Origin: a virus
Taxonomy: Duplodnaviria > Heunggongvirae > Uroviricota > Caudoviricetes
IMG/VR virus record: IMGVR_UViG_3300037280_000066
Location: 118,061-182,060 of that record
DNA: 64,000 nucleotides
Reading direction: 5' to 3' (one strand)
In this document: positions 35,923 to 63,060 of the stretch, one piece after another
Position numbering within the stretch: position 1 is the stretch's first letter
Layout of the letters: the number at the start of each line of letters is the position of its first letter
Notes under the pieces: generated by a model
Databases searched by the model: none
What the model saw: the letters and a program-made list of their open reading frames with translations, nothing else
Told to the model about the DNA's origin: nothing
Made by a program: the position numbers and the translations under genes

Positions 35923-36096
35923 AATGGAAAAGGAAAAAATTGACAATGAGTATAGAAGTTACGAACAAATGTTTAACTTCCTTATGTATACTGATTTTGT
36001 CAACTTGAAAGATGATAAAAAAATGAAAGTCATTAAAGAGATTCAAAATATTAAAATGGAAAAATTGCAATTGATACCACATAATAAGAATACATA
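35923..36096 (+). CDS. small hypothetical protein (57 aa)
   Basis: Not in track; TTAGGAGGTG RBS; TTGATT-17-TATAAT promoter at 35863-35891; supersedes the antisense track ORF 35873-36130. Confidence 0.45.
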
Positions 36097-36182
36097 ATAA
36101 AGGGGAAAAATACAAATGAGCATAAAACAAACAAACGAAAAAAACATGGTTATAATTTACAAGTTTATCAGGTTTTTAATAA

Positions 36183-36207
36183 AAAGGGTAACAAACCCTT
36201 TTTTTAT
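36183..36207 (+). terminator. Rho-independent terminator
   Basis: AAGGGTAACAAACCCTT hairpin followed by TTTTTTAT. Confidence 0.5.
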
Positions 36208-36214
36208 ATCGTAA

Positions 36215-36445
36215 AGTTATTATGTAAACTGATAAGTGTAGAGGGATTATGTAAACTCATTATGTTAAGTTATTATGTAAAGTGATTATGTCAACTCATT
36301 ATGGAAATTTTTTATGTCAACCCCTGGCTAGGTGGCTCATAGTGCGAATTCTATGTCTTATTTACAGCAACTACAAAAACAAGCATGAGGTAAAATGGAT
36401 TCCCTACGTTTTGAAGAGGGATTATGTAAATTAAAATCCTATGTT
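36215..36445 (+). repeat. iteron cluster 2: about 7 copies of ATTATGTAAAC-type repeats plus 2 copies of TATGTYWTATTTACAGCAA
   Basis: Copies at about 36219, 36248, 36263, 36275, 36288, 36316 and 36422; secondary repeat at 36352 and 36437. Confidence 0.75.
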
Positions 36446-36519
36446 ATATTTACAGCAAGCGTTTTGTAAACCACACAAATAAATAATTTACATAACTCGC
36501 AGGGGTAACAGAATTTACC

Positions 36520-36840
36520 AAGGGAGCGTGTTTCAAAATAAAATAACCAAAACCAAATTAAACAAACACCTTATTCCCCTCACCTCTAATTACCTTTACA
36601 CACCAACAAATAACTCCACTCTTCTCTTAATCCACACCCACAATTTTCCTCTCTATAATTTCCACTCCCTCCCTCTTCCCTCACACTTCAACATGAACAC
36701 ATATAAACTCATTCTACACAACACTTTCCTTATCTTAATCACCTCCAAAAATAACAAATACTCACCTATGCTTCGCCACATTTTTATCCTCTCTCAGACC
36801 TCTGTATATCCATATAATAAGCCAAACTAAAAACTACATT
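36520..36840 (+). other. G-depleted (C+A+T) strand-skewed segment
   Basis: About 320 nt nearly devoid of G on the plus strand; inverse composition to 32040-32335. Confidence 0.6.
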
Positions 36841-36934
36841 TCATATATAAAATAATGATAACTCACGAAGATTACAATTGACTACATCTAACATTACAAA
36901 TAAAAACTAAAAAAGTAAAATAGTAAAATAGGTA

Positions 36935-36964
36935 TTGACAATGTTATTATAGGCATGATACAAT
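36935..36964 (+). promoter_or_regulatory. early promoter (TTGACA-N18-TGATACAAT)
   Basis: GTATTGACAATGTTATTATAGGCATGATACAAT. Confidence 0.55.
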
Positions 36965-36994
36965 TAACACAATAAACTTAAGGAGGTTGAGTGT

Positions 36995-37216
36995 ATGTTG
37001 AATCATAGAGAGATAAGTAAAGGACTGGTCTTATATATTAATGATGAAAGGTTGCATTTGAGGGACAATGGCACACAGATAGAGGACACAACAACTGATA
37101 AATTGTTTGTATCATTTGCTCAATGGTTAGAAGAGTGTTTTAATATAAGTCTAGAAGCGTATAATGAAACACTTAAGCTATATAATATAATAGAGAATGA
37201 GGTGCGTAAGGTATGA
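36995..37216 (+). CDS. hypothetical early protein
   Basis: 73 aa; AAGGAGG RBS. Confidence 0.6.
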   Translation: MLNHREISKGLVLYINDERLHLRDNGTQIEDTTTDKLFVSFAQWLEECFNISLEAYNETLKLYNIIENEVRKV

Positions 37217-37614
37217 GTGAAAGAGGTATGAGAGAGTTAGTTGCTATAGGCAAGATGGAAGAAGTGTTTAAGATAGGTAATATAGTAACTCTAAGGTGTC
37301 CTAACACTATAGGTTATTTACAGTATGAAGGTGAGAGAATTTTTACTGGACTTGTTTTTGACTCTGGAATAATTACAACAACAGGACGTATATATTGGTT
37401 TAACCATGATATAGAAAAGTTAACACAAAATGAGTATGGTTGTACTATTCCATATTCAGTAATAGAAGCAGTATCATTTTTGTTAAATGATACAAAGAAT
37501 AATAAGTTTAGTAATATGTGTTCTATTGCATCATGGACAAGAGCATTATCTATAGGCATAGAGACAGCACATGATGCAGGGAAGTTAATGGATTATAAAA
37601 AAATAGAACTATAA
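37213..37614 (+). CDS. hypothetical early protein
   Basis: 133 aa; ATGA start/stop overlap with the upstream gene. Confidence 0.55.
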   Translation: MSERGMRELVAIGKMEEVFKIGNIVTLRCPNTIGYLQYEGERIFTGLVFDSGIITTTGRIYWFNHDIEKLTQNEYGCTIPYSVIEAVSFLLNDTKNNKFSNMCSIASWTRALSIGIETAHDAGKLMDYKKIEL

Positions 37615-37640
37615 TAATATAAGAAAGGAGGACAGCACTT

Positions 37641-37892
37641 ATGGGTATAATATTAAGCAGTCAGATATTAGAGGTAGAAGAAATAGTAAAGAAGACACAG
37701 GCAAAAATGTTTAAAAGTTTGAAAGTAGGCAATAAAATAGTAATAACTATTCCTATAATGAGAGATGCAGGGAGAAGGGGAGTAACAGCTAGTTACTTGA
37801 CAGCCACAAACTTAATAACATATGAGGAAAATGTTTCATCATTCAAACAGATGGATACCATATTACAATGTTTTAAGTTTAAGGCAGTATAA
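37641..37892 (+). CDS. hypothetical early protein
   Basis: 83 aa; AAGGAGG RBS. Confidence 0.6.
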   Translation: MGIILSSQILEVEEIVKKTQAKMFKSLKVGNKIVITIPIMRDAGRRGVTASYLTATNLITYEENVSSFKQMDTILQCFKFKAV

Positions 37893-37922
37893 TAAACTTA
37901 TACATACACATACTTATTCAAA

Positions 37923-37950
37923 CCTCTCATTCTGAGAGGTTTGTTTTTTA
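37923..37950 (+). terminator. Rho-independent terminator
   Basis: CCTCTCATTCTGAGAGG hairpin followed by TTTGTTTTTT. Confidence 0.7.
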
Positions 37951-37972
37951 TGTTTAAAATTGAATAAAAGTA

Positions 37973-38001
37973 TTGACAATATCAAACAATAAGAGTAAGA
38001 T
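37973..38001 (+). promoter_or_regulatory. early promoter (TTGACA-17-TAAGAT)
   Basis: TTGACAATATCAAACAATAAGAGTAAGAT. Confidence 0.55.
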
Positions 38002-38037
38002 GTATATATGATGATTAATATTAAATTGGAGGAATTG

Positions 38038-38430
38038 AGTATGATAAGATTTTGGAGTATGGGAGGTATCCTTATAGTTAAGGGTACAATACATTTTATA
38101 ACAGTAATGGAAAGTGGTTTTGATAATATAACTAAGATATCAGCAGGTAAATGTGGCTCTTTAACTGATATATTAGAAGTTAACCATAATACTAAGTGCA
38201 TCACAGCAATATACAATTATCCATCATCATTAGAGTATATAGCAGATTGGGCTAAAAATCTTTACCATGAATACCTACAAGCAGATGATAAGGTTGTGCA
38301 TAATGGTTTTGGAGTAGGTAAGATTGAGTGTTTCCATAAGACAAAAGCATATGTAGAGTTTAGTAAGATAGGTAAGGAGCGTAATGTCTCTTTATGGATT
38401 GAATCAAGTGAATTAACAAAAATGAGATAG
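38038..38430 (+). CDS. hypothetical early protein
   Basis: Track ORF trimmed to ATG 38038 (MIRFWSMGG), 7 nt after GGAGGA. Confidence 0.55.
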   Translation, partial: SMIRFWSMGGILIVKGTIHFITVMESGFDNITKISAGKCGSLTDILEVNHNTKCITAIYNYPSSLEYIADWAKNLYHEYLQADDKVVHNGFGVGKIECFHKTKAYVEFSKIGKERNVSLWIESSELTKMR

Positions 38431-38449
38431 TATAAGGAGGATAAGTAAA

Positions 38450-39043
38450 ATGTGTACAGCCAGATGCAATAACTGTAATATTGAGGAAGGTGAAGAATGT
38501 ACAAGGTTATTCAAACATATAAATGATTGTGATGAATGTCCATTTCAAGATGATAGAGAATATTGTAGTCATTCCCCTGATGGATATCATCCATGTGAGT
38601 TTAGAGAGGACTTTGGAGAGAAGACAGTAGAAGAGGTTCAGAGTCATATATCTAGTGGGATAAGAGCCTATGAAGAGCATGAGGATAGAATGTATGAGAA
38701 GGAACAGGAGAAAAAGAGAAAGGATAAGGAAGCAAAAGAGAAGAGAGACAGAACAAGGTGGGATAACTACCTATTAAATAAAGAGTTAACAAAGTTAAAA
38801 AAGGCAATAAGAAATAAGAAACAGTTTTTGAGTAGATTATCTGCCTTTAGTTCAGCAGTAGCCATAACAAATCATATGTTTAGTATGAATGATACAGAGA
38901 TAAGTATACCAGAACCAAAAGCAAAACATCCATTTGAGATTCAAATTGAGCAACATAATGAGCGTATACTTGAGATAAACAAAGAGAAGAAAGAGAAAGC
39001 AAAACAAAGAAGGATAAAAAATAAGGAGGGCAAAGAAAAATGA
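38450..39043 (+). CDS. Cys-rich N-terminus plus K/E-rich coiled-coil protein
   Basis: 197 aa; AAGGAGG RBS; CTARCNNCN...CTRLFKHINDCDECPF...CSHSPDGYHPC. Confidence 0.6.
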   Translation: MCTARCNNCNIEEGEECTRLFKHINDCDECPFQDDREYCSHSPDGYHPCEFREDFGEKTVEEVQSHISSGIRAYEEHEDRMYEKEQEKKRKDKEAKEKRDRTRWDNYLLNKELTKLKKAIRNKKQFLSRLSAFSSAVAITNHMFSMNDTEISIPEPKAKHPFEIQIEQHNERILEINKEKKEKAKQRRIKNKEGKEK

Positions 39044-39447
39044 ACAATAACTTTAAGGCATGGGATAAGGTTAACAAAAAAATTGAGGACATAGATGGTT
39101 GTCATTTGTACTTAGCAGATGGAAAGGTGTATGAGGTATATGAACAAGGTGGATGGTCAAGTTATATGGAGAAACGTAACATGGAAGACAGATACATCCC
39201 TCTTCAAGGGCTTGACATATGCGACATAACAGGACAGTTATTGTTTGAAGGTTATACTGTTAGATGCATACAGACAGGGCATGTAGGCAAGATAGCATTT
39301 AGGAAATACTATTGGACAGTCAAAGGTTATAAGAATTCAAACTTTGATATACCATTCATGGCATTTTCAGAAGATGAAACATTTGAAATAGTAAGTACTG
39401 ATATTGATTATGATATAGAGGGAGGAAAACATAATGTTTCTGAATAG
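39040..39447 (+). CDS. hypothetical early protein
   Basis: 135 aa; AAGGAGGG RBS; start overlaps the upstream stop. Confidence 0.55.
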   Translation: MNNNFKAWDKVNKKIEDIDGCHLYLADGKVYEVYEQGGWSSYMEKRNMEDRYIPLQGLDICDITGQLLFEGYTVRCIQTGHVGKIAFRKYYWTVKGYKNSNFDIPFMAFSEDETFEIVSTDIDYDIEGGKHNVSE

Positions 39448-39724
39448 TTATGATATAGTTTTACAGGCTAATGGCATGTATGGAATAGTTATAGCCAATG
39501 AAATATTTTGTTTAGATGGTCAGCATTATGAACTTAAGAACTTTAGGCAGAACCTAACATTTAAAGGCAGTCAAATATGTAATATAGTAGCCATTTACAA
39601 AGCCAGAGAACAATATGCACCTAGTCAATTAGCAATGTCAATTTACAGGAATTTTAATCCTGTAAGAGAGATAGAAAGGTGTTATGATAAGTTCTTAACT
39701 GGTAATGATGGCAATAACAGTTAA
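39434..39724 (+). CDS. hypothetical early protein
   Basis: 96 aa; GAGGGAGG RBS. Confidence 0.5.
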   Translation: MFLNSYDIVLQANGMYGIVIANEIFCLDGQHYELKNFRQNLTFKGSQICNIVAIYKAREQYAPSQLAMSIYRNFNPVREIERCYDKFLTGNDGNNS

Positions 39725-39751
39725 AATAAAAATTTAATTTAACGAATAGTA

Positions 39752-39780
39752 TTGACAGTATTGCGAAATACTGTTATTAT
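39752..39780 (+). promoter_or_regulatory. early promoter (TTGACA-17-TATTAT)
   Basis: AATAGTATTGACAGTATTGCGAAATACTGTTATTAT. Confidence 0.55.
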
Positions 39781-39813
39781 TATATTATCAAATAAATTGT
39801 GGAGGTTATGAAT

Positions 39814-40008
39814 ATGTTGAAAGAGATTAATAGAACAATGCATGTGTGTAGATTACCAGAAAAAGCACAAGAGAAAATTGCTAGGTATTTAATGGATATG
39901 CCAGAAACAACTATTCATGGACTTAATAATATGATGGATGGACGTATCTGTGATATGGAAGAGGTTGTAAGTTTTTCTAAAATTTTGGAATTAATAAAGG
40001 AGGTTTAA
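39814..40008 (+). CDS. hypothetical early protein
   Basis: Track ORF trimmed to ATG 39814 (MLKEINRT), 8 nt after GGAGG. Confidence 0.5.
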   Translation: MLKEINRTMHVCRLPEKAQEKIARYLMDMPETTIHGLNNMMDGRICDMEEVVSFSKILELIKEV

Positions 40009-40015
40009 GTATTTC

Positions 40016-40258
40016 ATGAACAAGTCAATAGGTGTTAAGTGTGTGTTAGGTGATTTAGTAAAAGTTGTAGGAGGAAGGAACAAAGGCAAGTTAGGTTATG
40101 TAGTAGGTATTAGTGTTGTAGAATGTGAGGGAGCAAATATCCTTGACCAGAAGATAACCTATACTGTTGATGCATATGTAGACATGAGAGGATTTATCAA
40201 GAAGAAGATAAAAGTTGTTGAAGATAACCTGATGGACTTAGGTGGGAGTAGTATATGA
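40016..40258 (+). CDS. hypothetical protein with KOW-like motif
   Basis: 80 aa; AAGGAGG RBS; GDLVKVVGGRNKGKLGYVVGI. Confidence 0.55.
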   Translation: MNKSIGVKCVLGDLVKVVGGRNKGKLGYVVGISVVECEGANILDQKITYTVDAYVDMRGFIKKKIKVVEDNLMDLGGSSI

Positions 40259-40464
40259 AATTTTTTGTAGAAGTTTATGTAAAGAGTGCCAAAAAAGGTG
40301 TTATATTTGAATGGAGGAAGGTAAGACCATCATTACAGGAAGAACCTTATGAGTTTGACACTGTAAAAAAAGCTGTAGACATGGTTGAGAGATGTTATCC
40401 TGAACCTTGTGGTAAGGTAAGAATTGTTGATTCAAATGGTGAGGAATGGAAACATTTTCTTTAA
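40255..40464 (+). CDS. hypothetical early protein
   Basis: 69 aa; GGTGGGAG RBS; 4-nt overlap with the upstream gene. Confidence 0.5.
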   Translation: MKFFVEVYVKSAKKGVIFEWRKVRPSLQEEPYEFDTVKKAVDMVERCYPEPCGKVRIVDSNGEEWKHFL

Positions 40465-40484
40465 AATAAATTTGAAAAATAGTA

Positions 40485-40514
40485 TTGACAGTATTATTAT
40501 TTTTATGATAAGAT
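40485..40514 (+). promoter_or_regulatory. early promoter (TTGACA-18-TGATAAGAT)
   Basis: AATAGTATTGACAGTATTATTATTTTTATGATAAGAT. Confidence 0.6.
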
Positions 40515-40555
40515 ATAGAGGTAGCAAACAAACTAACTAATAGGAGCGTGTGAGT

Positions 40556-40771
40556 ATGATTAAAATTGAGATAACTAGTGCATCAAAAGAAGATTTACAG
40601 GCAGTTTATGATTTTCTAAATAACCTTGATGGTCTTGTGTGGGAAAGTGATGATAGCGAAGGTATAGTAACAATAGAGTTAGATGATGATACAATGATGC
40701 ATTGTGACTTTTGTGATTTCACTGAATTGCTTAATGATTTAGATATAGAGTGGGAGGAATTGGAAAACTAA
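40556..40771 (+). CDS. small highly acidic protein (possible DNA mimic)
   Basis: Start at ATG 40556 (MIKIEITS) after GGAGCGTG; about 30 percent D/E residues. Confidence 0.5.
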   Translation: MIKIEITSASKEDLQAVYDFLNNLDGLVWESDDSEGIVTIELDDDTMMHCDFCDFTELLNDLDIEWEELEN

Positions 40772-40835
40772 GATACATAGAAAGGAGGAATATTTTACTT
40801 CACTACACACTACATTATATAGGAGGTTTATAGAT

Positions 40836-41141
40836 ATGGACAATTTGAATTTTAAAAGAACAGAGCATTTACTAAAAACAGTATTGCAACAGATTAATGA
40901 GATTCAGGAACTAACCAAGAGTATTGAGAGTAAGAGCATAGCCAACAGAATAGCTGAGATGGATGTAGAAGCAGGGGATATAGTAATTGTAGCACCAACA
41001 GGCAACAGAGAGGAAGATTTCAAGGCAACATTTGTTGCATGGGATAATGAGGATAAGACAAAGCCAATTGATACAGGTGTTTGTATGGATGAAAAAGGTG
41101 GATTAATATATGTACATGTATGGAGCTTAACCAAGGCTTAA
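40836..41141 (+). CDS. hypothetical early protein
   Basis: 101 aa; TAGGAGG RBS. Confidence 0.6.
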   Translation: MDNLNFKRTEHLLKTVLQQINEIQELTKSIESKSIANRIAEMDVEAGDIVIVAPTGNREEDFKATFVAWDNEDKTKPIDTGVCMDEKGGLIYVHVWSLTKA

Positions 41142-41169
41142 TAAGATAAATATAATATAAGGATATAAA

Positions 41170-41203
41170 AGATAGTGGGTAAATTGCCTACTATCTTTTT
41201 TGC
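41170..41203 (+). terminator. Rho-independent terminator (loop GGGTAAATTGCC, shared with the 46030 terminator)
   Basis: AGATAGT...ACTATCT stem followed by TTTTTTGC. Confidence 0.6.
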
Positions 41204-41337
41204 ATATTGTGTTGACAGGGCTTAATATGTATGATAGAATAAAGAAAGAGACTCACGCAAGGAGAATGTTGGGGGAGAAACACTCAACTTGCACTTTTTT
41301 AAAAAGAGGTTAAAAAATTAAAGATGAATAAATGATA

Positions 41338-41367
41338 TTGACAATACATATAATACTATGGTAAGAT
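41338..41367 (+). promoter_or_regulatory. early promoter (TTGACA-18-TGGTAAGAT)
   Basis: GATATTGACAATACATATAATACTATGGTAAGAT. Confidence 0.6.
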
Positions 41368-41408
41368 ATAAGAGTAGAAAATATCAAATGAGCGAAGGAG
41401 TGTTGAAT

Positions 41409-41711
41409 ATGTTATTATCAACTAAATTAGCAAATAAGCTTAAGGCTTTATCAGGTGACTTAGACATTCAGTTAAAGAACATTAGAATAAATGGTGAAGC
41501 AAGAGGTTGTAGTGGTTTTGTAACTTGCAAATTAACAGGTAACATTGTCTATGTTAATACCGAAAAGTCATGTTACAGTCCACTTGCACATAAGAATTTG
41601 TATAGGTCAGCAAAAAACACTAAAGACTATACAGGTGGCATAAATCAATTTGCTACTGATGAAGATATTGCAGAATCAATTATCAAATGGTTAAAGAGAG
41701 GTTATATTTAA
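41409..41711 (+). CDS. hypothetical early protein
   Basis: Track ORF started inside the -10 box; trimmed to ATG 41409 (MLLSTK) behind GAAGGAG. Confidence 0.55.
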   Translation: MLLSTKLANKLKALSGDLDIQLKNIRINGEARGCSGFVTCKLTGNIVYVNTEKSCYSPLAHKNLYRSAKNTKDYTGGINQFATDEDIAESIIKWLKRGYI

Positions 41712-41725
41712 AGGAGGTAGTAATA

Positions 41726-41851
41726 TGTGTAATTGTTCAGATATGTACAATTGTTGTGATTGTGGAGGTAATGGCTGTGGTTGTCCTTATTGTTGGAGTT
41801 GTAATGCATGTGAGGAATGTTTAGAAGAAGAAGAAAAAGAAAATAAATAAA
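41726..41851 (+). CDS. 41-aa Cys-rich peptide (MCNCSDMYNCCDCGGNGCGCPYCWSCNACEEC...)
   Basis: Not in track; AAAGGAGG RBS 7 nt upstream; 13 Cys; acidic tail. Confidence 0.5.
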
Positions 41852-41867
41852 AAATGAATAATAATAT

Positions 41868-41896
41868 TGACAATATCATATAATAAGCGTATACTT
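41868..41896 (+). promoter_or_regulatory. early promoter (TTGACA-17-TATACT)
   Basis: AATAATATTGACAATATCATATAATAAGCGTATACT. Confidence 0.5.
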
Positions 41897-41902
41897 AAAG
41901 AG

Positions 41903-41952
41903 TGGTCAGGCAAGCGTAAATCCTTCCTTGCAAGTGTAGTTGCCTGACTACA
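41903..41952 (+). promoter_or_regulatory. conserved 5'-leader hairpin element, copy A
   Basis: GTGGTCAGGCAAG-CGTAAATCCTTCC-TTGCAAGTGTAGTTGCCTGAC: covarying stem, conserved loop; starts at the predicted +1. Confidence 0.6.
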
Positions 41953-41983
41953 ACAAAATAAAAATCACATGGAGGTCATGTAT

Positions 41984-42544
41984 ATGTTGACAAGAGAAGA
42001 TTTAACCAGAGGTATTAAGAACTTAGAGAACTACTTAGCAACAGGCAAGGATGGTAAGGCAATAGTAGTAGGTACAGAAGAGCATGTTAACATGAACAAA
42101 GCAATTGATGTACTTGCAAATCTACTTAAGGATATGGATGTAGCAGAAGTAATAGTGCCAGTTCTTCCAGTACCAGCAGTAGAGAAAGTTAAGAAGGAAA
42201 GAAAACCAAGAGCTAAAAAAGTAAAGCCAGAGTTGAAATGGAACAAAGACAACATAAAGGATTTACTTTCCAAGTATAACACAATGGTAGAGAGGTCAAT
42301 AGTTCAGTTGTATGAGAGACAAACAGCAGATGAAAAGCAGACTGCAAGTACAAATCATGAGAATGGAATAGGTTTTAATGGTTCAGATGCACCTATTATG
42401 TCAAGTTTTGCTAAACAGGTAATGAGAGGTGTTGTTCTTTCCCCTAAACAATTGGATATAGCTAGACCAAAGATAATGAAGTATGCAGGGCAGTTAGCAC
42501 ATATAGGCAATGAGATAGAAGCTACAAAGGCAAAAGGGCAATAA
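41984..42544 (+). CDS. hypothetical early protein
   Basis: Start ATG 41984 (MLTREDL), 8 nt after GGAGG in the CATGGAGGTCATGTATATG context. Confidence 0.6.
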   Translation: MLTREDLTRGIKNLENYLATGKDGKAIVVGTEEHVNMNKAIDVLANLLKDMDVAEVIVPVLPVPAVEKVKKERKPRAKKVKPELKWNKDNIKDLLSKYNTMVERSIVQLYERQTADEKQTASTNHENGIGFNGSDAPIMSSFAKQVMRGVVLSPKQLDIARPKIMKYAGQLAHIGNEIEATKAKGQ

Positions 42545-42576
42545 GCCCTTCCCTGCATTAATAGGAGGAAGAGAGT

Positions 42577-42897
42577 ATGAGATTAAATGTTACACAAATA
42601 ACACAAGAAGTAAAGAACACATTTTGTTTAATGTTAGGAGAACAGGAAATATTAGAACTAAAAGAGATGGAGAAAGAATATATCCCTTTGAAATTCAGCG
42701 TATATGTGTGTAGACAGAAAGCAGAATGGGTGTATTATTTTATCATCAAAGGATATAAACAAGAGTTTGAGACTGACTTAGGCATTGAAACTTTGTATGA
42801 TGGTTTAATTCAGGAAACAAATAAATTCAATACAGTTAAAGAAATGGTGTTACATATCATTAATAACTGTGATTCATTAAGTATATCACCACTATAA
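42577..42897 (+). CDS. hypothetical early protein
   Basis: 106 aa; TAGGAGG RBS. Confidence 0.6.
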   Translation: MRLNVTQITQEVKNTFCLMLGEQEILELKEMEKEYIPLKFSVYVCRQKAEWVYYFIIKGYKQEFETDLGIETLYDGLIQETNKFNTVKEMVLHIINNCDSLSISPL

Positions 42898-42913
42898 AAG
42901 GAGGAATGTTATT

Positions 42914-43237
42914 GTGTTAGATACAGTTGATAAGGTTGTTACTAAGATTGAACTTTCACCATATGTAAAGGAAAGAATCAAGGCAAAGTTAGAATTGATT
43001 GAGAGCAAAAATGTTGTACCTATGGAGCAGTTAAGGCAGTTGTTGAACTTTGTATGTCCTAATGTGGTTAAGTTGATTAAACCACCAAATAGGTTTCAAT
43101 ATGGCTCAACAGATGAAGCAATTGTTTTATATATGAAAGCTTCTAGTGAGTGCATGTTTGAGAATTCACAGTTTAATTTTCCATATACTAATGAAAGTCT
43201 AGAGCAGTTGAAAAAGTATATAAAAGAAATTAAGTAA
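42914..43237 (+). CDS. hypothetical early protein
   Basis: 107 aa; GTG start 9 nt after AAAGGAGG. Confidence 0.5.
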   Translation: MLDTVDKVVTKIELSPYVKERIKAKLELIESKNVVPMEQLRQLLNFVCPNVVKLIKPPNRFQYGSTDEAIVLYMKASSECMFENSQFNFPYTNESLEQLKKYIKEIK

Positions 43238-43243
43238 ATAGTA

Positions 43244-43273
43244 TTGACAGTATTACTATTTATATGGTAGAAT
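43244..43273 (+). promoter_or_regulatory. early promoter (TTGACA-18-TGGTAGAAT)
   Basis: AATAGTATTGACAGTATTACTATTTATATGGTAGAAT. Confidence 0.6.
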
Positions 43274-43279
43274 GTATTT

Positions 43280-43334
43280 GTGGTCAGGACAACGTAATTT
43301 ATTCCTTCCTCGTAAGTGTTGTTATCCTGACTGC
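43280..43334 (+). promoter_or_regulatory. conserved 5'-leader hairpin element, copy B
   Basis: GTGGTCAGGACAA-CGTAATTTATTCCTTCC-TCGTAAGTGTTGTTATCCTGAC. Confidence 0.6.
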
Positions 43335-43370
43335 AAACAAACAAAAATAAAAACATGGAGGTCATGTATT

Positions 43371-43811
43371 ATGATGGATAAGAATGGTATTGAGTTGAAA
43401 GTGGGACAGATAGTTAAAATTGAAGGTGGATTTTTCAAGGCTGATAATGGTTTATTTAGAATTTCACATGCACCTGAAAATGAAAATTGGAGTGGTACAG
43501 ACTACTGTTTGAAAAAGGTTAACAAGGATTTTTCAGATAGCAAGAGCAAGTATAGCACAGCGTTTTTTCCTTTAATGGTTACAGTTAGCAAGAGAGAGAC
43601 AAGATTACAAGCTAGAGAACACAACAAGACCAATGCTACAATAGAAGTTGTTGGTAGTGTTAAGATATATAAAATCAAAGAAACTCATGATACATGGAGT
43701 GTAAGAGATAATATTGATTATGTAACAGAATCAGAACTTGAAGAGTGCAAAAAGAGTTCCAGATTTGAGTTTGAACTATTGGAAATATTAAATTGTGAAG
43801 TTGAAAAATAG
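43371..43811 (+). CDS. hypothetical early protein
   Basis: Track ORF began in the promoter; trimmed to ATG 43371 (MMDKNGIELK), 9 nt after GGAGG. Confidence 0.6.
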   Translation: MMDKNGIELKVGQIVKIEGGFFKADNGLFRISHAPENENWSGTDYCLKKVNKDFSDSKSKYSTAFFPLMVTVSKRETRLQAREHNKTNATIEVVGSVKIYKIKETHDTWSVRDNIDYVTESELEECKKSSRFEFELLEILNCEVEK

Positions 43812-43813
43812 TA

Positions 43814-43842
43814 TTGACAGTATCATGGTAGTGTGGTAATAT
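43814..43842 (+). promoter_or_regulatory. early promoter (TTGACA-17-TGGTAATAT)
   Basis: AATAGTATTGACAGTATCATGGTAGTGTGGTAATAT. Confidence 0.55.
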
Positions 43843-43879
43843 AAGAGGGTAGACAAAATAAAACTGTGGAGGTCACATT

Positions 43880-44386
43880 ATGAAGAAGAGTGAAATTTTA
43901 AAGGCTGAACTTGCAACATTGAATGCAGACAATGAAAAGGCAATGCAGGAAATTAGAAGCTTAGTACCTAACCATACAGCTAAGTATAATGAGTATTGGA
44001 ATGGCAAGGGCAAGAATTATTTTCAAAGGGAAAGAGAATTGAAAGATGGAATAATCAGAGAGGAAAGAAGAGAAGTTGAAGTTGGAGATGGTGTTACAGT
44101 TTGTTTGTATAGTGATAGACATGCAGGGACAGTTATAAAGAGGACTAAATGTACTATCACAGTACAGAGGGACAAAGCTACACTTAATCCTGATTTCAAG
44201 CCAGAGGTAGTTGCAGGGGGTTTTGCAGGACATTGTACAAATCAGGATGAACAGACATACACCTATGAGAGAGATTCAAAGGGTAGTATTGAAACATATA
44301 GATGGTCAGAAAAGCGTGGTATATTTCAGAATGACAGTATCAAAGTAATAAATGGTAGAAGAGAGTTTTATGATTACAATTTTTAA
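43880..44386 (+). CDS. hypothetical early protein
   Basis: 168 aa; TGGAGGTCACATTATG start context. Confidence 0.6.
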   Translation: MKKSEILKAELATLNADNEKAMQEIRSLVPNHTAKYNEYWNGKGKNYFQRERELKDGIIREERREVEVGDGVTVCLYSDRHAGTVIKRTKCTITVQRDKATLNPDFKPEVVAGGFAGHCTNQDEQTYTYERDSKGSIETYRWSEKRGIFQNDSIKVINGRREFYDYNF

Positions 44387-44399
44387 TTTGCAAATAGTA

Positions 44400-44429
44400 T
44401 TGACAGTATTAAGCTTTATGTGGTAAGAT
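44400..44429 (+). promoter_or_regulatory. early promoter (TTGACA-18-TGGTAAGAT)
   Basis: AATAGTATTGACAGTATTAAGCTTTATGTGGTAAGAT. Confidence 0.6.
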
Positions 44430-44435
44430 GTACTT

Positions 44436-44492
44436 GTGGTTAAGAGATAACGTAAATAAATCCTTCCCTGAAAGTGTTGTTATCTCTTCACC
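44436..44492 (+). promoter_or_regulatory. conserved 5'-leader hairpin element, copy C
   Basis: GTGGTTAAGAGATAA-CGTAAATAAATCCTTCCCTGAAAGTGTTGT-TATCTCTTCACC. Confidence 0.6.
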
Positions 44493-44531
44493 TAAGACTT
44501 GAAAGAAAATAATGAAATGATGAATAAATGA

Positions 44532-44560
44532 TTGACAAATGAGGTAAACTAAGGTAAGAT
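44532..44560 (+). promoter_or_regulatory. early promoter (TTGACA-17-TAAGAT), tandem to the 44400 promoter
   Basis: ATTGACAAATGAGGTAAACTAAGGTAAGAT. Confidence 0.5.
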
Positions 44561-44611
44561 AAGGATAACAACTAACAACAAATTTTAAATTAAAAAAGGA
44601 GAATGATTATT

Positions 44612-45763
44612 ATGTTTAAGAAGACACAGCTTTCAATGAATTATTTAGGTTTGGTTAAGAAGGTAGTATCAGGAGCAGTAAGGTTTGATTTGGAAATACA
44701 AAGAAGAGCAGTATGGACAGAGAAACAGAAGCAAGACCTGATTGACTCATTAATTTTTGATTTCCCTGTTCCTCCATTGTACTTTGTAGATTTGAAAGAT
44801 GATTTCAAATGGGCATTAGATGGACAGCAAAGGTCAAGAGCTATGACAGAATTCTTCCAAGGCAAGTTTGTTTTGAGTGATGAACTTGACAACTATGTTG
44901 ATGATGATGGAGCAGAATACATGGTGGCAGGATTGAGCTATGCAGAACTTCCACAAACTGTACAAACTAAGTTGAATAGTACAAACGTTAACACATACAC
45001 ATTCTCTGATATATCAGAAGACGAAATAACCATTATGTTCCAAAGATTGAATGCAGGAACAGCCTTTAAGAAGATTGAGCTTATCAGAATTGACATGCCT
45101 ACAGCGTTTACAGCATTCATTAATGAAGTATCAAGAGATTCCTTCTTTGCTGATAAGGTGGCTATAAGTGACAAAGCAAGGGTACATTTTTCAGACCAAG
45201 AACTTATCCTTCAAACACTTATTATGTTCTCTAATGCTGATTCAGGCTTTACAGGTAAAGAGATTCAAGATTTTGTATCATATTACACATTGGAAGATGA
45301 TGTAAAGGACAGATTCAGAGAAGTTTTAACTTACCTTAACAAAGCATTTGTATTGAGTGAGAAGCTACTTAAAAAGACTGCTGTGCCTGTAATATTCAAG
45401 GTAGCAGAAATAGCAATAATTGAAAAAGTACAGCCAGAAGAGTTCTATACATGGACAGTTGACTTCTTCAAAGCTCAAAAAACTGGTGGCGAATATGGAA
45501 GAACAGTAAGTGCAGGAAGTGCAAGAAAAGAAAATGTAAAGAGAAGACTTGAAGTTTTACGCAATGCATTTACAAAGGAAGTTCCTGAACTCAAAAAGAT
45601 TCAAGTAATTAGAGAAAAGGCAGAAGCAAAAGCAAGAGCAGAAGCCATCAAGAACCCTCCTGTAGTAGCACCTGTAGTATCTGACATAATAACAGACCTT
45701 GCAGACGATAAGGACGTAATATTGCCAGTAGTAGCAGGACAAACTCAACAGGCACAGGTGTAA
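44612..45763 (+). CDS. DUF262/ParB-like nuclease-domain protein
   Basis: Start ATG 44612 (MFKKTQ), 10 nt after AAGGAG; LEIQRRAVWTEKQKQDLIDSLIFDFPVPPLYF...LDGQQRSRAM matches the DUF262 (GmrSD N-terminal/ParB-like) signature. Confidence 0.6.
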   Translation: MFKKTQLSMNYLGLVKKVVSGAVRFDLEIQRRAVWTEKQKQDLIDSLIFDFPVPPLYFVDLKDDFKWALDGQQRSRAMTEFFQGKFVLSDELDNYVDDDGAEYMVAGLSYAELPQTVQTKLNSTNVNTYTFSDISEDEITIMFQRLNAGTAFKKIELIRIDMPTAFTAFINEVSRDSFFADKVAISDKARVHFSDQELILQTLIMFSNADSGFTGKEIQDFVSYYTLEDDVKDRFREVLTYLNKAFVLSEKLLKKTAVPVIFKVAEIAIIEKVQPEEFYTWTVDFFKAQKTGGEYGRTVSAGSARKENVKRRLEVLRNAFTKEVPELKKIQVIREKAEAKARAEAIKNPPVVAPVVSDIITDLADDKDVILPVVAGQTQQAQV

Positions 45764-45764
45764 T

Positions 45765-46004
45765 ATGCCAAAACCAAAAGTATTTCAAATAAACTTTGAT
45801 TCCACAAGTACTTATGGCATTGATGTAGTTGTTTGTGAGAAACAAGAACAAATACAAAGTGTTATGGAGTCTAGAGGTTATACAAAGGTAGTAGTTGAAG
45901 AGGTTAAAGAGTTATCCTTGCAACAAATCAAGGTAGAACATTTAACAGTAGGTGACTTACTTAAGCTTATACAAGCAATGAACAGGCATGAGATAACACC
46001 ATAG
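45765..46004 (+). CDS. hypothetical early protein
   Basis: 79 aa; begins 1 nt after the upstream stop. Confidence 0.5.
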   Translation: MPKPKVFQINFDSTSTYGIDVVVCEKQEQIQSVMESRGYTKVVVEEVKELSLQQIKVEHLTVGDLLKLIQAMNRHEITP

Positions 46005-46029
46005 TAATATAAAATATATGAAACTAAGA

Positions 46030-46066
46030 AAAACAGAGGGTAAATTGCCTTCTGTTTTTTTATTTT
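46030..46066 (+). terminator. Rho-independent terminator (loop GGGTAAATTGCC)
   Basis: ACAGAGGGTAAATTGCCTTCTGT followed by TTTTTTTATTTTC. Confidence 0.55.
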
Positions 46067-46086
46067 CAAAAAGTGAATAAATGATA

Positions 46087-46116
46087 TTGACAATACATAT
46101 ACTATCATGGTAAGAT
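46087..46116 (+). promoter_or_regulatory. early promoter (TTGACA-18-TGGTAAGAT)
   Basis: GATATTGACAATACATATACTATCATGGTAAGAT. Confidence 0.6.
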
Positions 46117-46163
46117 ATAAGAGTGGAAAGCACACAATAATGAATAACGTGGAGGTCACGCAT

Positions 46164-47393
46164 ATGATGAATCAAGAATTGAGCAAATTGCCAGAGGTTA
46201 GTGAAGTAGTAGAGGTAGTAGCACCAAGAGTTAACTTTACAATTTATAGTGAGAACCTAGAGAAGTTTGAAAGTAAAATGAAAATGCTTACAAAGAAGTC
46301 AGTAAAGATAGGCAATGGCAACATAGGTTACAAGGTTACTGATGAAGAGTTTGTTAAGATAGATGATATATGGCACAAAATGATTCACATAGAAATTACT
46401 GGTTCAGAAGTACCTAGAATCAATGGTTGGGAGTTTGTAGCAACAATAGACCACATGAGTCTTGATAATGGAAACATCATAAACAAGATTCCAACATTTG
46501 AAGGTGAGATACCTGAAAGATTCAGAACAACAGGTCAGTATTGCGAACATTGCAACAGCTACAGAAGAAGGAATGATACTTATATCCTCTTCAATGAAAG
46601 CACAGGAGAGTTTAAGCAGATAGGGAAAAATTGTTTGAAGGATTTCTTAGGACATAACAGCCCTGAACACTACGCTAGATACGCTGAATACTTAATGGAG
46701 ATGAAAGAACAGGAAGAAGAGTTATGCAGGGGATTGAGTAATATACCAAAGTACACATTGTTGATAGATTGGGTAGCACAAAGTCAGTCAGTAATTCGCA
46801 CTATGGGTTATGTATCAAGAAGCAATGCAGAAGAATTTGGCAAGAGAGCAACAACTGATGAAGTGTACGAACAGATGTTTGAACAAGAGGGCATGAAAGA
46901 AAAGGATATAATAGCTGTAACACAGGAAGACAAAGACCTTGCAGTTAAAGTAATAGAGTACATCAAAGGTATAGAAACAAAAACAGATTATGAGGAAAAT
47001 TTGAAACTTATTTCTATAAGTGAATGTATAGCATTGAGGGTAAAGGGGTATGCTACTAGCATGATACCTTACTACATGAAAGCAATGGAGCTTTTGAAAG
47101 TAAAAGAAGTAGAGATACCATCGAAGCATATAGGTACAGTAGGACAAAAGATAGAAGTTGAATTAACAGTTGAAAAAGTTGTAGTATGGGAAAATGCATT
47201 TGGAGTTGTAAGGCTTCACCTGATGAAAGATAAGGAAGGGAATGTCTTTACATGGAAGACTTCATCAAAGTCTCTTATGGAGGGTTCAGAGGTCAAATTG
47301 AAGGGTACAATTCAGGAACATACAGAGTACTATGGTGCTAATAGGTCAAACTTGACATTACAAACACAATTGACTAGATGTAAAGTACTTTAA
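46164..47393 (+). CDS. hypothetical protein with internal CxxC zinc-finger-like motif
   Basis: Trimmed to ATG 46164 (MMNQELSKL) after GGAGGTCACGCAT; 409 aa; CEHCNSYRRRND. Confidence 0.6.
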   Translation: MMNQELSKLPEVSEVVEVVAPRVNFTIYSENLEKFESKMKMLTKKSVKIGNGNIGYKVTDEEFVKIDDIWHKMIHIEITGSEVPRINGWEFVATIDHMSLDNGNIINKIPTFEGEIPERFRTTGQYCEHCNSYRRRNDTYILFNESTGEFKQIGKNCLKDFLGHNSPEHYARYAEYLMEMKEQEEELCRGLSNIPKYTLLIDWVAQSQSVIRTMGYVSRSNAEEFGKRATTDEVYEQMFEQEGMKEKDIIAVTQEDKDLAVKVIEYIKGIETKTDYEENLKLISISECIALRVKGYATSMIPYYMKAMELLKVKEVEIPSKHIGTVGQKIEVELTVEKVVVWENAFGVVRLHLMKDKEGNVFTWKTSSKSLMEGSEVKLKGTIQEHTEYYGANRSNLTLQTQLTRCKVL

Positions 47394-47630
47394 TTCAAAT
47401 AGGTTGGCAGTGAGCCATAAACTGCCCTCTAAGGAGGTTTTATATTTGTATATCAAAGAGTAATTGGACAGCCTTACACACGCACTAGCAACGTAATAAA
47501 GACCAGTAAGGCATTGGAGGTAGGAAAGTTTACAACATATCATCAACATGGAATAAACAGGGCAAGGGTAGATAGGTGTGTATTCTGTCCTAAAGAGTTT
47601 AAAGTTTTTATAACAATTTCAAGATAGATG

Positions 47631-47660
47631 TTGACAGCATTATTCTTTTCATGATAGACT
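47631..47660 (+). promoter_or_regulatory. early promoter (TTGACA-18-TGATAGACT)
   Basis: GTTGACAGCATTATTCTTTTCATGATAGACT. Confidence 0.5.
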
Positions 47661-47690
47661 GTAATAGTAGAAAATATTTAGGAGGAAACC

Positions 47691-48023: not shown

Positions 48024-48045
48024 ATAAAAAACTTTTCAAATAGTA

Positions 48046-48075: not shown

Positions 48076-48129
48076 GTAAGAGTGCTAGAGACACTAACAC
48101 AAATCATACAAAACAGGAGCGTGTTTATT

Positions 48130-49100: not shown

Positions 49101-49153
49101 GTGGTCAGGGCAACGTAAATAAATCCTTCGTTGAAAGTGTTGTTCTCCTGACC
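49101..49153 (+). promoter_or_regulatory. conserved 5'-leader hairpin element, copy D
   Basis: GTGGTCAGGGCAA-CGTAAATAAATCCTTCGTTGAAAGTGTTGTT-CTCCTGACC. Confidence 0.6.
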
Positions 49154-49185
49154 TACATATTCTAAATAAAATAAAAAATAGGAGC

Positions 49186-51313: not shown

Positions 51314-51435
51314 TATAATATGTAGGAGTAAGGGGAGGGTAACCTTCCCTGAAAGTACTTTGGTAATATGACTTGATGTTTCAATGCTTGAAATATCAAT
51401 TGATGTTATTAAAAAAATATTAGGAGGAAAAAGTA

Positions 51436-62933: not shown

Positions 62934-62940
62934 AGTAAAT

Positions 62941-63000
62941 GTAGACAGGGCAAGCGTAAAAATTATTTCCCTTCTTTGAAAGTGTTGTTGCCTTGGATAC
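62941..63000 (+). promoter_or_regulatory. conserved 5'-leader hairpin element, copy E (no downstream ORF within about 1 kb)
   Basis: GTAGACAGGGCAAG-CGTAAAAATTATTTCCCTTCTTTGAAAGTGTTGTT-GCCTTGGATAC. Confidence 0.55.
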
Positions 63001-63031
63001 AGTGACTAAAGTACATAAGCAAGAAAAAAGC

Positions 63032-63060
63032 TTGACAAAAGAAATAAGGTATGGTAAGAT
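63032..63060 (+). promoter_or_regulatory. promoter (TTGACA-17-TGGTAAGAT)
   Basis: AAGCTTGACAAAAGAAATAAGGTATGGTAAGAT. Confidence 0.55.

What the first reader, a model, noticed from the sequence alone, without database searches (positions are those of the whole stretch)
41903..41952. Conserved structured leader element family (copy A shown; copies at 43280, 44436, 49101, 62941; partial at 51320)
Five transcripts begin, at the predicted +1 just after the TGnTAAGAT -10 box, with a roughly 50-nt hairpin. The stem sequence differs between copies but stays complementary (examples: GUCAGGCAAG/CUUGCCUGAC, UUAAGAGAUAA/UUAUCUCUUCA, CAGGGCAA/UUGCCUUG). The internal loop is nearly invariant: CGUAAAU(A)AAUCCUUCC..(U)GAAAGUGUUGUU. 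Stem covariation around a conserved loop is the signature of a functional RNA structure. The loop contains an anti-Shine-Dalgarno-like UCCUUCC that could pair with the downstream GGAGGUCA ribosome-binding sites. Copy E has no ORF downstream, so the element may also function alone. I do not recognise it as a known riboswitch, thermometer or T-box.
Basis: seen in the sequence. Interest (0 to 1): 0.7.

Follow-up and report, generated by a model that had tools for sequence, protein, structure and literature searches.

The report
Conserved-loop hairpin heading phage early transcripts
Five early transcripts of an uncultured 182-kb phage are predicted to start with the same unclassified RNA hairpin, whose stem sequence varies while staying paired and whose large loop is conserved; it matches no known RNA family and its function is still unknown.

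Summary
Five + strand sites (41902-41951, 43279-43335, 44436-44493, 49101-49156, 62940-63001) each lie 5-9 nt after the -10 box of a TTGACA-N17/18-TAnnnT promoter. Each folds into a 12-16 bp stem closing a 26-33 nt loop: C-GUAA-(A/U spacer)-CCU(U/C)C-NNN-GNRA-GUGU(U/A)G.

A related phage supplies three more copies at syntenic positions, giving 8 distinct sequences.
- 88.6% of stem cells pair.
- 10 of 16 pairs change on both sides (0/500 shuffles reach this).
- Loop identity is 84%, against about 60% for the arms.
- G.U outnumbers A.C 14:2, which points to the + strand RNA.

There is no Rfam match even at E<=10. Pattern scans of IMG/VR, JGI metagenome contigs and 185,579 GTDB species genomes added only that second phage. 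More distant relatives lack the element.

The "partial copy" at 51320 is not a member. Put-like antitermination lacks terminators to act on.

My best guess (0.4) is a 5'-terminal protective stem that displays a conserved loop to a trans-acting factor controlling stability or translation. The promoter+hairpin units also sit at gene-indel boundaries, like T4 PeSL cassettes. The motif is real and new, but lineage-restricted, and its function is unproven.

The parts
41902..41951 (+). Copy A. Stem GUGGUCAGGCAA/UUGCCUGACUAC (12 bp); shortest loop, 26 nt. Lies 19 nt upstream of GGAGG and the 186-aa gene starting at 41984.
   Evidence: dG -19.8, z -3.2; 45.3 bits; 60 bits
41867..41895 (+). Promoter of copy A: TTGACA-17-TATACT.
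43279..43335 (+). Copy B. 15-bp stem with one C.A mismatch; 27-nt loop that can form an inner AUUUAU/GUAAGU helix. Upstream of the 146-aa gene at 43371.
   Evidence: dG -21.1, z -6.0; 81.3 bits
43244..43273 (+). Promoter of copy B: TTGACA-18-TAGAAT, with TG.
44436..44493 (+). Copy C. Stem GGUUAAGAGAUAAC/GUUAUCUCUUCACC, entirely different in sequence from A/B/D. Followed 40 nt later by a second promoter, not an ORF.
   Evidence: dG -15.1, z -5.0; 50.6 bits; 72.5 bits
44400..44429 (+). Promoter of copy C: TTGACA-18-TAAGAT.
44532..44560 (+). Second promoter downstream of copy C; it has no hairpin and drives the GmrSD_N/DUF262 gene (44612-45763). In the relative, a 150-aa ORF lies between the hairpin and this promoter.
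49101..49156 (+). Copy D. Stem GGUCAGGGCAAC/GUUCUCCUGACC with one C.C mismatch. Upstream of the gene starting near 49195.
   Evidence: dG -15.9, z -2.3; 76.7 bits
49065..49094 (+). Promoter of copy D: TTGACA-18-TAAGAT.
62940..63001 (+). Copy E. Stem CAGGGCAA/UUGCCUUG plus GUA/UAC; longest loop, 33 nt. No ORF follows; it heads a cluster of promoters and tRNA-like/Y-RNA-like genes upstream of a Ro60 (TROVE) gene.
   Evidence: dG -15.7, z -2.0; 34 bits; 58 bits
62905..62933 (+). Promoter of copy E: TTGACA-17-TAAGAT.
63032..63060 (+). Second promoter about 30 nt after copy E. The orthologous copy H in the relative has the same arrangement.
51326..51358 (+). Possible degenerate relic, not a member. 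The leader after promoter 51293-51321 contains CCUUCCCUGAAAGU, identical to 14 nt of the loop of copy C, but here it is paired with an upstream GGGGAGGG.
   Evidence: E=0.75; not found

Best explanation
The element is a lineage-specific structured RNA that forms the extreme 5' end of five sigma-A-type early transcripts. It is a 12-16 bp stem of free sequence closing a 26-33 nt conserved loop.

The most likely function is a modular 5'-leader element with two jobs:
- The terminal stem leaves essentially no single-stranded 5' tail. In Firmicutes that blocks 5'-end-dependent decay (RppH/RNase J1), so it would stabilise the transcript.
- The invariant loop nucleotides (GUAA ... CCUYC-NNN-GNRA-GUGU) are displayed as a docking site for a trans-acting factor. 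This is most plausibly a host or phage RNA-binding protein or ribonuclease, which would put this subset of early transcripts under common post-transcriptional control of stability, processing or translation.

Shown here: the fold, its covariation, strand specificity, loop conservation, fixed position after the promoter, and conservation across two phages even where the downstream gene differs. Inferred: the transcription start, the stabilising effect, and the existence and identity of the factor.
For: Structure under selection. On 8 distinct sequences, 88.6% of stem cells pair, 10/16 pairs change on both sides, 0/500 shuffles reach the observed values, and slid registers give 33-65% pairing.

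Loop conservation. The loop is 84% identical against 62% and 58% for the arms. That is the reverse of what neutral decay of a duplicated cassette would give.

Strand. G.U pairs number 14 against 2 A.C (7 against 2 without the invariant pair). The fold therefore belongs to the + strand transcript, not to a symmetric DNA feature.

Position. All eight stems start 5-9 nt after a strong -10 box.

Conservation independent of cargo. The B/F homology is a ~120-bp island (43205-43323 against L223 3493-3609) with non-homologous genes on both sides. C/G homology stops at the end of the loop, within the hairpin. This argues for a generic expression function rather than a gene-specific one.

Exclusions. 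There is no specific RNA partner: loop-to-own-RBS pairing is not better than chance in 5/6 copies, and no outstanding complementary site exists in 73 kb. No known RNA family matches.

Background knowledge (my own, not tested here): 5'-terminal stem-loops stabilise mRNAs, as in E. coli ompA and in B. subtilis aprE and ermC model transcripts.
Against: - No transcript data exist; +1 is predicted only.
- Protection alone would not need a conserved loop, and no binding protein has been identified.
- Only 5 of 29 similar early promoters carry the element. Close relatives do without it at the same loci (65% identical neighbouring protein in L310, 64% in L314), so it is dispensable.
- Only 8 sequences from 2 phages support the statistics, and they are related. 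The alignment was fitted to the model, which favours pairing.
- In C, E and H the hairpin is followed by another promoter rather than a gene. That fits a stand-alone RNA as well as it fits a leader.
Confidence: 0.4

Rival explanations
1. Cis-acting anti-Shine-Dalgarno switch. The pyrimidine tract CCU(U/C)C in the loop pairs with the downstream GGAGG as a loop-to-RBS pseudoknot and represses translation until a factor or condition releases it.
For: CCUUC can pair with GGAGG with one G.U. The relative's copy F has CCUCCUUU, identical to the 16S anti-SD tail, and 9 perfect pairs with its own RBS (AUUCCUCCU/AGGAGGAAU): -22.6 kcal/mol against -14.0 +/- 3.1 for other RBSs, 0/300 shuffles. In the relic at 51326 the same tract is paired with GGGGAGGG.
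Against: For A, B, C, D and G the duplex with the copy's own RBS is no better than with 39 other early RBSs or with shuffled loops; D is worse than all of them. Seven of eight copies keep CCUUC rather than the optimal CCUCC. C, E and H have no RBS nearby. The idea leaves GUAA, GNRA and GUGUUG conservation unexplained.
Confidence: 0.12
2. Endoribonuclease processing site, comparable to the RNase III sites of the T7 and SP82 early regions. Stem plus conserved loop is recognised and cut by a host or phage RNase, either to remove the protective 5' end at a set time or to release a small hairpin RNA.
For: Several copies lie in one early region, with variable stems and a conserved non-helical part. 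The overall rod-like shape resembles those sites if the loop flanks stack (A20-U44 and U24-A42 are invariant). T7 and SP82 early RNase III sites share this logic (my own knowledge, not tested here). The phages carry RNA-repair genes (Ro60; RtcB in the relative), which shows an investment in RNA-end biology.
Against: An inner helix is formed only in B and F (54.5% of cells pair, no double-sided change), so there is no continuous ~20-bp duplex. The sites are at 5' ends rather than between cistrons. No cleavage data exist.
Confidence: 0.15
3. Trans-acting small RNA or decoy. The ~60-nt hairpin is the functional product (a 5'-UTR-derived sRNA). Its C/U-rich loop targets Shine-Dalgarno regions or titrates a host factor, as the C-rich loops of Firmicute sRNAs such as RsaE/RoxS do.
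For: Copies C, E and H have no gene of their own and are followed directly by another promoter. The loop is pyrimidine-rich and generally complementary to GGAGG-type RBSs (background energies -9 to -14 kcal/mol). Multiple strong promoters would give a high dose.
Against: No terminator follows any copy, so a discrete small RNA would need processing. No conserved complementary target was found in 73 kb. The orphan state of C is explained by loss of an ORF that is present in the relative.
Confidence: 0.12
4. DNA-level element: a promoter+hairpin recombination cassette (PeSL-like) that mediates gene shuffling, or a recognition site or promoter for the phage's own YonO-like RNA polymerase.
For: Homology islands confined to promoter+hairpin, with indel and replacement breakpoints in or near the hairpin's 3' arm, mirror the PeSL cassettes of T4-type phages (PMC2839356, PMC4122927). 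The phage encodes a non-canonical RNAP.
Against: Double-strand recombination or protein binding does not require compensatory stem changes. The 14:2 excess of G.U over A.C is strand-specific. The spacing between the conserved loop blocks varies by 8 nt (A against E), which is unlike a two-box promoter. The PeSL stem-loop is a GC-rich terminator, described as blocking transcription initiated upstream of the cassette; here a 27-nt loop with no U-tract lies downstream of the promoter.
Confidence: 0.08
5. Put-like processive antitermination RNA that modifies the host RNA polymerase which has just transcribed it.
For: The location is promoter-proximal, the structure covaries, and no protein partner is needed in the HK022 precedent (my own knowledge).
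Against: It is a single hairpin rather than the two-stem put architecture. No intrinsic terminators were found within or after the element-bearing units: only one strong terminator-like site lies in 36-56 kb, at 37919, upstream of all copies.
Confidence: 0.05

Closest known systems
PeSL (promoter-early stem-loop) cassettes of T4-type phages (PMC2839356, PMC4122927)
   Same: Repeated units of a near-consensus sigma-70 early promoter plus an adjacent stem-loop, found in the variable early region and sitting at the boundaries of inserted, deleted or replaced ORFans.
   Different: The PeSL stem-loop is a short GC-rich terminator, described as attenuating transcription that starts upstream of the cassette. 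Here the hairpin is transcribed from the promoter, has a 26-33 nt conserved loop and no U-tract. It also shows RNA-type covariation with a conserved loop, which was not reported for PeSLs.
RNase III processing hairpins of phage T7 and B. subtilis phage SP82 early mRNAs (my own knowledge)
   Same: Several copies in one early region, variable paired arms, and a conserved non-Watson-Crick part.
   Different: Those sites lie between cistrons and have two coaxial helices around an internal loop. Here the position is 5'-terminal and a second helix is not conserved. Cleavage was not tested.
5'-terminal stabiliser stem-loops (E. coli ompA; B. subtilis aprE and ermC-type leaders; my own knowledge)
   Same: A stable stem starting within 0-2 nt of the predicted 5' end.
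   Different: Stabilisers need no conserved loop sequence and are not repeated families within one genome.
HK022 put RNAs
   Same: Promoter-proximal, cis-encoded structured RNA in phage early transcripts, with stems that covary between copies.
   Different: Put has two stem-loops and acts on downstream terminators. Here there is one hairpin and no terminators.
C/U-rich-loop regulatory RNAs of Firmicutes that target Shine-Dalgarno sequences (RsaE/RoxS type; my own knowledge)
   Same: A pyrimidine-rich tract presented in a loop and complementary to GGAGG.
   Different: Those are independent terminated sRNAs with CCCC/UCCC motifs. No target or terminator is present here, and Rfam finds no similarity.

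Membership tests
Any Rfam 15 family (riboswitches, T-box, thermometers, ribozymes, leaders, sRNAs) | Covariance-model score at or above the family's gathering threshold | tested here: not met
   Whole window at gathering gave only 26 tRNAs. Region 41000-64000 at E<=10 gave no hit overlapping any copy.
PeSL cassette | Strong sigma-70-like early promoter directly adjacent to a stem-loop | tested here: met
   All eight copies lie 5-9 nt after a TTGACA-N17/18-TAnnnT promoter.
PeSL cassette | The stem-loop is an effective terminator/attenuator (GC-rich stem) for transcription initiated upstream of the cassette | tested here: not met
   The hairpin is downstream of the promoter, has a 26-33 nt loop and is not followed by a U-run.
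PeSL cassette | Located at the boundaries of ORFan insertions, deletions or replacements between related phages | tested here: met
   B/F is a ~120-bp homology island with non-homologous flanks. A 150-aa ORF is present only in the relative, between the copy C/G hairpin and the next promoter.
Cis anti-SD translational repressor | Complementarity of the element to its own ribosome-binding site beyond chance, conserved across copies | tested here: not met
   Only F is exceptional. A, B, C, D and G are not better than 39 other RBSs or 300 shuffled loops.
HK022 put-type antiterminator RNA | Two adjacent stem-loops (~65-70 nt) | tested here: not met
   A single helix is supported; an inner helix is not conserved.
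HK022 put-type antiterminator RNA | Terminators downstream in the same transcription unit | tested here: not met
   No terminator-like site on the + strand after 38087 within 36000-55900.
RNase III-type phage processing site | About two turns of coaxial double helix around an internal loop | tested here: inconclusive
   Helix 1 has 12-16 bp. The putative helix 2 pairs in only 54.5% of cells; it is Watson-Crick in B and F only.
RNase III-type phage processing site | Specific cleavage by RNase III | not testable with these tools
   Needs an in vitro cleavage assay or in vivo end mapping.
5'-terminal mRNA stabiliser hairpin | Stable stem within a few nt of the transcript's 5' end | tested here: met
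   The stem starts 5-9 nt after the -10 hexamer in all copies, with dG -15 to -26 kcal/mol. The start site is predicted, not measured.
5'-terminal mRNA stabiliser hairpin | Increases mRNA half-life | not testable with these tools
   Needs rifampicin chase or reporter experiments.
Bacterial Y RNA / YrlA (Ro60 partner) | GNCGAAN0-1G Ro-binding motif near the 5' end, plus a tRNA-like domain (PMC4201824) | tested here: not met
   Neither motif nor tRNA-like domain is present in the element. The loop profile has no significant similarity to the neighbouring Y-like modules. Only short words (AGUGU[A/U]G, pyrimidine tract) are shared.

The most novel reading that the evidence does not exclude
The conserved loop is the recognition tag of a previously unknown phage post-transcriptional regulon. 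A phage- or host-encoded RNA-binding protein or RNase reads the tag on a chosen subset of early transcripts, including the precursor of the Ro60-associated Y-RNA/tRNA-like cluster. It would either mark them as 'self' during phage-induced RNA turnover or time their decay or translation. This would be a new class of phage riboregulatory element, with a portable promoter+tag cassette that new genes acquire by recombination.
Probability: 0.15. Interest if true: 0.75.

Novelty: new variant of a known kind. Interest (0 to 1): 0.5.

Why it matters
Early regions of large phages are full of unknown genes, and how those genes are controlled after transcription is barely understood. This is a compact motif of about 58 nt that is clearly under selection. 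It is attached to strong host-type promoters, moves with them as a cassette, and is kept even when the downstream gene is swapped.

If the loop binds a factor, it defines a phage regulon and gives a handle (a ready-made bait RNA) for finding a new RNA-binding regulator or nuclease in gut Firmicute phages. As a portable 5' module it could also be useful for expression engineering.

If it proves to be only a stabiliser, it is a neat but ordinary example. Its narrow distribution (two phages) limits its general importance.

Tried and rejected
Searches for more copies:
- Three pattern scans of IMG/VR gave only chance hits. All lay in coding regions without flanking stems.
- A strict loop pattern against metagenome contigs and genome contigs found true copies only in SESB01 contigs of one related phage. 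The hits in Paraglaciecola, Aequorivita, TARA and a Clostridia MAG lie in unrelated sequence with no flanking stem or promoter and were taken as chance.
- Protein-guided searches through three neighbouring genes fetched about 100 related loci. Only the same second phage carries the element.
- Megablast of the region against INPHARED phages found no match.

Ideas tested and dropped:
- Link to the adjacent Y-RNA/Ro60 cluster. The Y-like modules are framed by UAGUGUAG and GUUUUUCUCC, words that resemble the two halves of the loop, which suggested a circularly permuted mimic. The loop profile finds no significant match there, and the published Ro-binding motif is absent. Dropped as unsupported.
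- An inner helix or GNRA hairpin within the loop. The four variants GAAA, GCAA, GUAA and GUGA all fit GNRA, but no closing helix is conserved.
- A trans RNA target. Only scattered 9-12-mers complementary to the loop were found, as chance would give.
- A terminator reading on either strand. There is no U-run after the stem and the loop is far too large.
- A CRISPR-repeat mimic (RNA anti-CRISPR). Considered from memory only; the architecture does not fit and it was not pursued.

Full report
**What is there**

At the five stated positions the + strand carries the same composite unit. A near-consensus sigma-70/sigma-A promoter comes first: TTGACA, a 17-18 nt spacer, then TAAGAT (C, D, E), TAGAAT (B) or TATACT (A). 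A hairpin follows 5-9 nt after the -10 box.

The hairpin has a 12-16 bp stem and a 26-33 nt loop. The loop consensus is C-GUAA-(A/U-rich, 2-10 nt)-CCU(U/C)C-NNN-G-N-R-A-GUGU(U/A)G.

An ungapped loop pattern hits exactly these five sites, with 0.12 expected by chance. Each copy folds more stably than its dinucleotide shuffles, with z from -2.0 to -6.0. The region 36-64 kb holds 29 such promoters on the + strand, and only five carry the hairpin.

The remaining early leaders are short. They consist of GU(A/G)G, an A/C-rich linker, and GGAGGUCA or AGGAGCG. The hairpin therefore looks like a module inserted just after the start site.

**Genomic setting**

The window belongs to a 181,836-bp Logan contig (SRR11847931_1200889). 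The same phage is present in a JGI metagenome (L221).

It is a large phage of a low-GC Firmicute-like host. It has 26 tRNA genes and a YonO-like single-subunit RNA polymerase that is 36-39% identical to those of Thomasclavelia phages TR-TP1/TP2. Its long + strand early region is made of small genes of unknown function.

The genes downstream of the copies are unrelated to one another:
- A: a 186-aa protein (phrog_21015).
- B: a 146-aa ORFan.
- C: a GmrSD_N/DUF262 protein, reached through a second promoter.
- D: a ~227-aa protein.
- E: about 3 kb of tRNA-like and YrlA-like RNA genes followed by a Ro60/TROVE gene.

**Is it known?**

No Rfam 15 family matches, either at gathering thresholds over the whole window or at E<=10 over 41-64 kb. 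Megablast against INPHARED phages finds nothing.

**Relatives**

Pattern scans of IMG/VR gave only chance matches. A strict loop pattern was run against the JGI metagenome collection and against one genome for each of 185,579 species. True copies turned up only in SESB01 contigs. These belong to a second phage that is also found in Logan runs SRR8517160/61 and in assemblies SESC/SESG.

That second phage has three copies at syntenic positions:
- F corresponds to B.
- G corresponds to C. The flanking 168-aa gene is 65% identical.
- H corresponds to E. The flanking 3D-domain gene is 78% identical.

Two covariance models were built: R1 from four copies and R2 from all eight. They recover exactly these copies and nothing else in the following:
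- the window and the 9 kb beyond it;
- Thomasclavelia phage TR-TP1;
- the IMG/VR loci encoding the 168-aa homologue (all 80 with R1, 31 of them again with R2);
- the closest Logan/ENA/JGI relatives (46-65% identical neighbouring proteins).

The family is therefore real but narrow, with 8 distinct sequences in 2 phages. About 109 kb of the source genome could not be read with the tools available.

**Structure test**

On the model-based alignment of the eight sequences:
- 88.6% of stem cells form standard pairs.
- 10 of 16 pairs show changes on both sides, and 17 cells do.
- None of 500 column shuffles reaches the observed pairing, double-change counts or covariation score.
- Sliding the 3' partners by 1-3 columns drops pairing to 33-65%.

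Orthologous pairs show clean compensation. For example, C has GAGAUAA/UUAUCUC and G has GAGACAG/CUGUCUC.

Mean pairwise identity is 84% in the loop, against 62% and 58% in the 5' and 3' arms. This is the opposite of neutral decay of a duplicated cassette.

G.U pairs outnumber A.C oppositions 14 to 2, or 7 to 2 without the invariant G.U. The selected fold is therefore that of the + strand RNA, not a symmetric DNA cruciform or the antisense RNA.

A second, inner helix (AUUUAU/GU[A/G]AGU) exists only in B and F. Across the family it pairs in 54.5% of cells with no double-sided change.

Caveats: there are only eight related sequences, and the alignment was fitted to the model.

**Testing the proposed mechanisms**

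*(a) Anti-Shine-Dalgarno pairing in cis.* CCUUC can pair with GGAGG with one wobble. Copy F carries CCUCCUUU and has 9 perfect pairs with its own RBS. Its duplex energy is -22.6 kcal/mol, against -14.0 +/- 3.1 for 39 other early RBSs, and 0/300 shuffled loops reach it.

For A, B, C, D and G the duplex with the copy's own RBS is no better than with other RBSs or with shuffled loops. D is worse than all of them. C, E and H have no RBS nearby. The idea is therefore not a general explanation.

*(b) Put-like antitermination.* There is a single hairpin, and no terminator-like site on the + strand after 38087 within 36-56 kb.

*(c) RNase III-type processing.* The shape is suggestive, but a continuous two-turn helix is not conserved. 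Cleavage cannot be tested here.

*(d) Trans-acting RNA.* No terminator follows any copy, and no outstanding complementary site exists in 73 kb.

*(e) Relation to the neighbouring Y-like RNAs and Ro60.* The Y-like modules are framed by UAGUGUAG...GUUACUUC and GUUUUUCUCC. These words resemble the two loop halves in a circularly permuted arrangement. However, a loop profile finds no significant match there, and the published Ro-binding motif GNCGAAN0-1G (PMC4201824) is absent. I record this as an unproven lead only.

*(f) DNA-level cassette.* DNA comparison with the second phage shows that B/F homology is confined to ~120 bp of promoter plus hairpin (43205-43323 against L223 3493-3609). The flanks on both sides are non-homologous.

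C/G homology ends at the end of the loop, within the hairpin (44486), and resumes at the next promoter (44515). In the relative a 150-aa ORF sits in between. This explains why C is an "orphan" hairpin followed by a promoter.

It also parallels the PeSL promoter/stem-loop cassettes that mediate modular shuffling in T4-type phages (PMC2839356, PMC4122927). PeSL stem-loops, though, are GC-rich terminators thought to act on transcription coming from upstream of the cassette. Recombination alone would not produce compensatory stem changes, a strand-specific G.U excess or a conserved loop.

**Best reading**

The element is a portable 5'-leader RNA module. The stem at the very 5' end most likely shields the transcript from 5'-end-dependent decay. 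That rests on established behaviour of 5'-terminal stem-loops in E. coli and B. subtilis, which is my own knowledge and was not tested here.

The conserved loop most likely serves as a recognition site for a trans-acting factor, either a protein or a nuclease from host or phage. That factor would give these transcripts a common post-transcriptional fate.

What is shown: the fold, covariation, strand, loop conservation, fixed promoter-proximal position, cross-phage conservation independent of the downstream gene, and absence from known families. What is inferred: the start site, the stabilising effect and the factor. I give this reading 0.4. Processing site (0.15), cis anti-SD switch (0.12), trans sRNA or decoy (0.12), DNA-level function (0.08) and put-like antitermination (0.05) remain open.

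**Verdict**

Structured RNA with covariation and no Rfam match is right; the anti-SD mechanism is not general.

The motif is a new, unclassified RNA element of a known general kind, namely a phage promoter-proximal structured leader or cassette. It is restricted to one small phage lineage and its function is unproven.

Noticed in passing
window 62900-64000, continuing in L220 10380-13380 (3 kb); Ro60 gene at L220 13380-14861: A gene-free cluster with 3-4 sigma-A promoters encodes about a dozen tRNA-like and YrlA-like modules. Rfam gives tRNA at 40-46 bits and YrlA at 29-34 bits, the latter below gathering. Each module is framed by UAGUGUAG..GUUACUUC at the 5' side and GUUUUUCUCC at the 3' side, and the cluster sits directly upstream of a TROVE/Ro60 gene. 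The related phage also has RtcB ligase just upstream (L315 8117-9343). This looks like a phage RNA-repair/Y-RNA module with an unusually large Y-like RNA array.
   Followed up: partly
window 15730-21100, - strand: An array of 26 tRNA genes (51-72 bits each).
   Followed up: no
window 23481-25985, - strand: An 834-aa YonO-like single-subunit (two-barrel) RNA polymerase. It is 36-39% identical to genes of Thomasclavelia phages TR-TP1/TP2 that are annotated there as 'RNA-dependent RNA polymerase'.
   Followed up: partly
window 36210-36300: Iteron-like direct repeats (TTATGTAAAC / TTATGTTAAG / TTATGTCAAC) at the junction where the + strand early region begins. This may be a replication origin or a regulatory array.
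   Followed up: no
window 41212-41310: Promoter TTGACA-17-TAGAAT drives a ~70-nt ORF-less transcript ending in a hairpin plus U6 (GCAAG...CUUGC-ACUUUUUU). The region is 75% identical to L223 2059-2211, so this is a probable small RNA gene.
   Followed up: partly
window 56310-56373: A perfect 30-bp hairpin (dG -41 kcal/mol, z -13) right after the gene ending at 56310 and before promoter 56402. It gave only spurious sub-threshold miRNA-type Rfam hits.
   Followed up: partly
window 36000-64000, + strand promoters: The 29 early promoters share more than the hexamers: an AT-rich upstream block (often AATAGTATTGACAGTATTA), an initial transcribed sequence (A/G)AGAGU(A/G)G, and an extended SD GGAGGUCA(U/C)G. 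This suggests duplication or recombination of whole promoter cassettes.
   Followed up: partly
L223 4672-4705 (= L180 1135-1170): Tandem repeats CAAGATACCACG/TAAGATACCACG lie immediately after copy G, in the leader of the 150-aa ORF that the window phage lacks.
   Followed up: no
window 51326-51358: The leader after promoter 51293 forms a hairpin GGGGAGGG-UAA-CCUUCCC(U). Its 3' half plus the following bases (CCUUCCCUGAAAGU) is identical to 14 nt of the loop of copy C. This may be a relic of the element with its pyrimidine tract captured by an SD-like purine run.
   Followed up: partly
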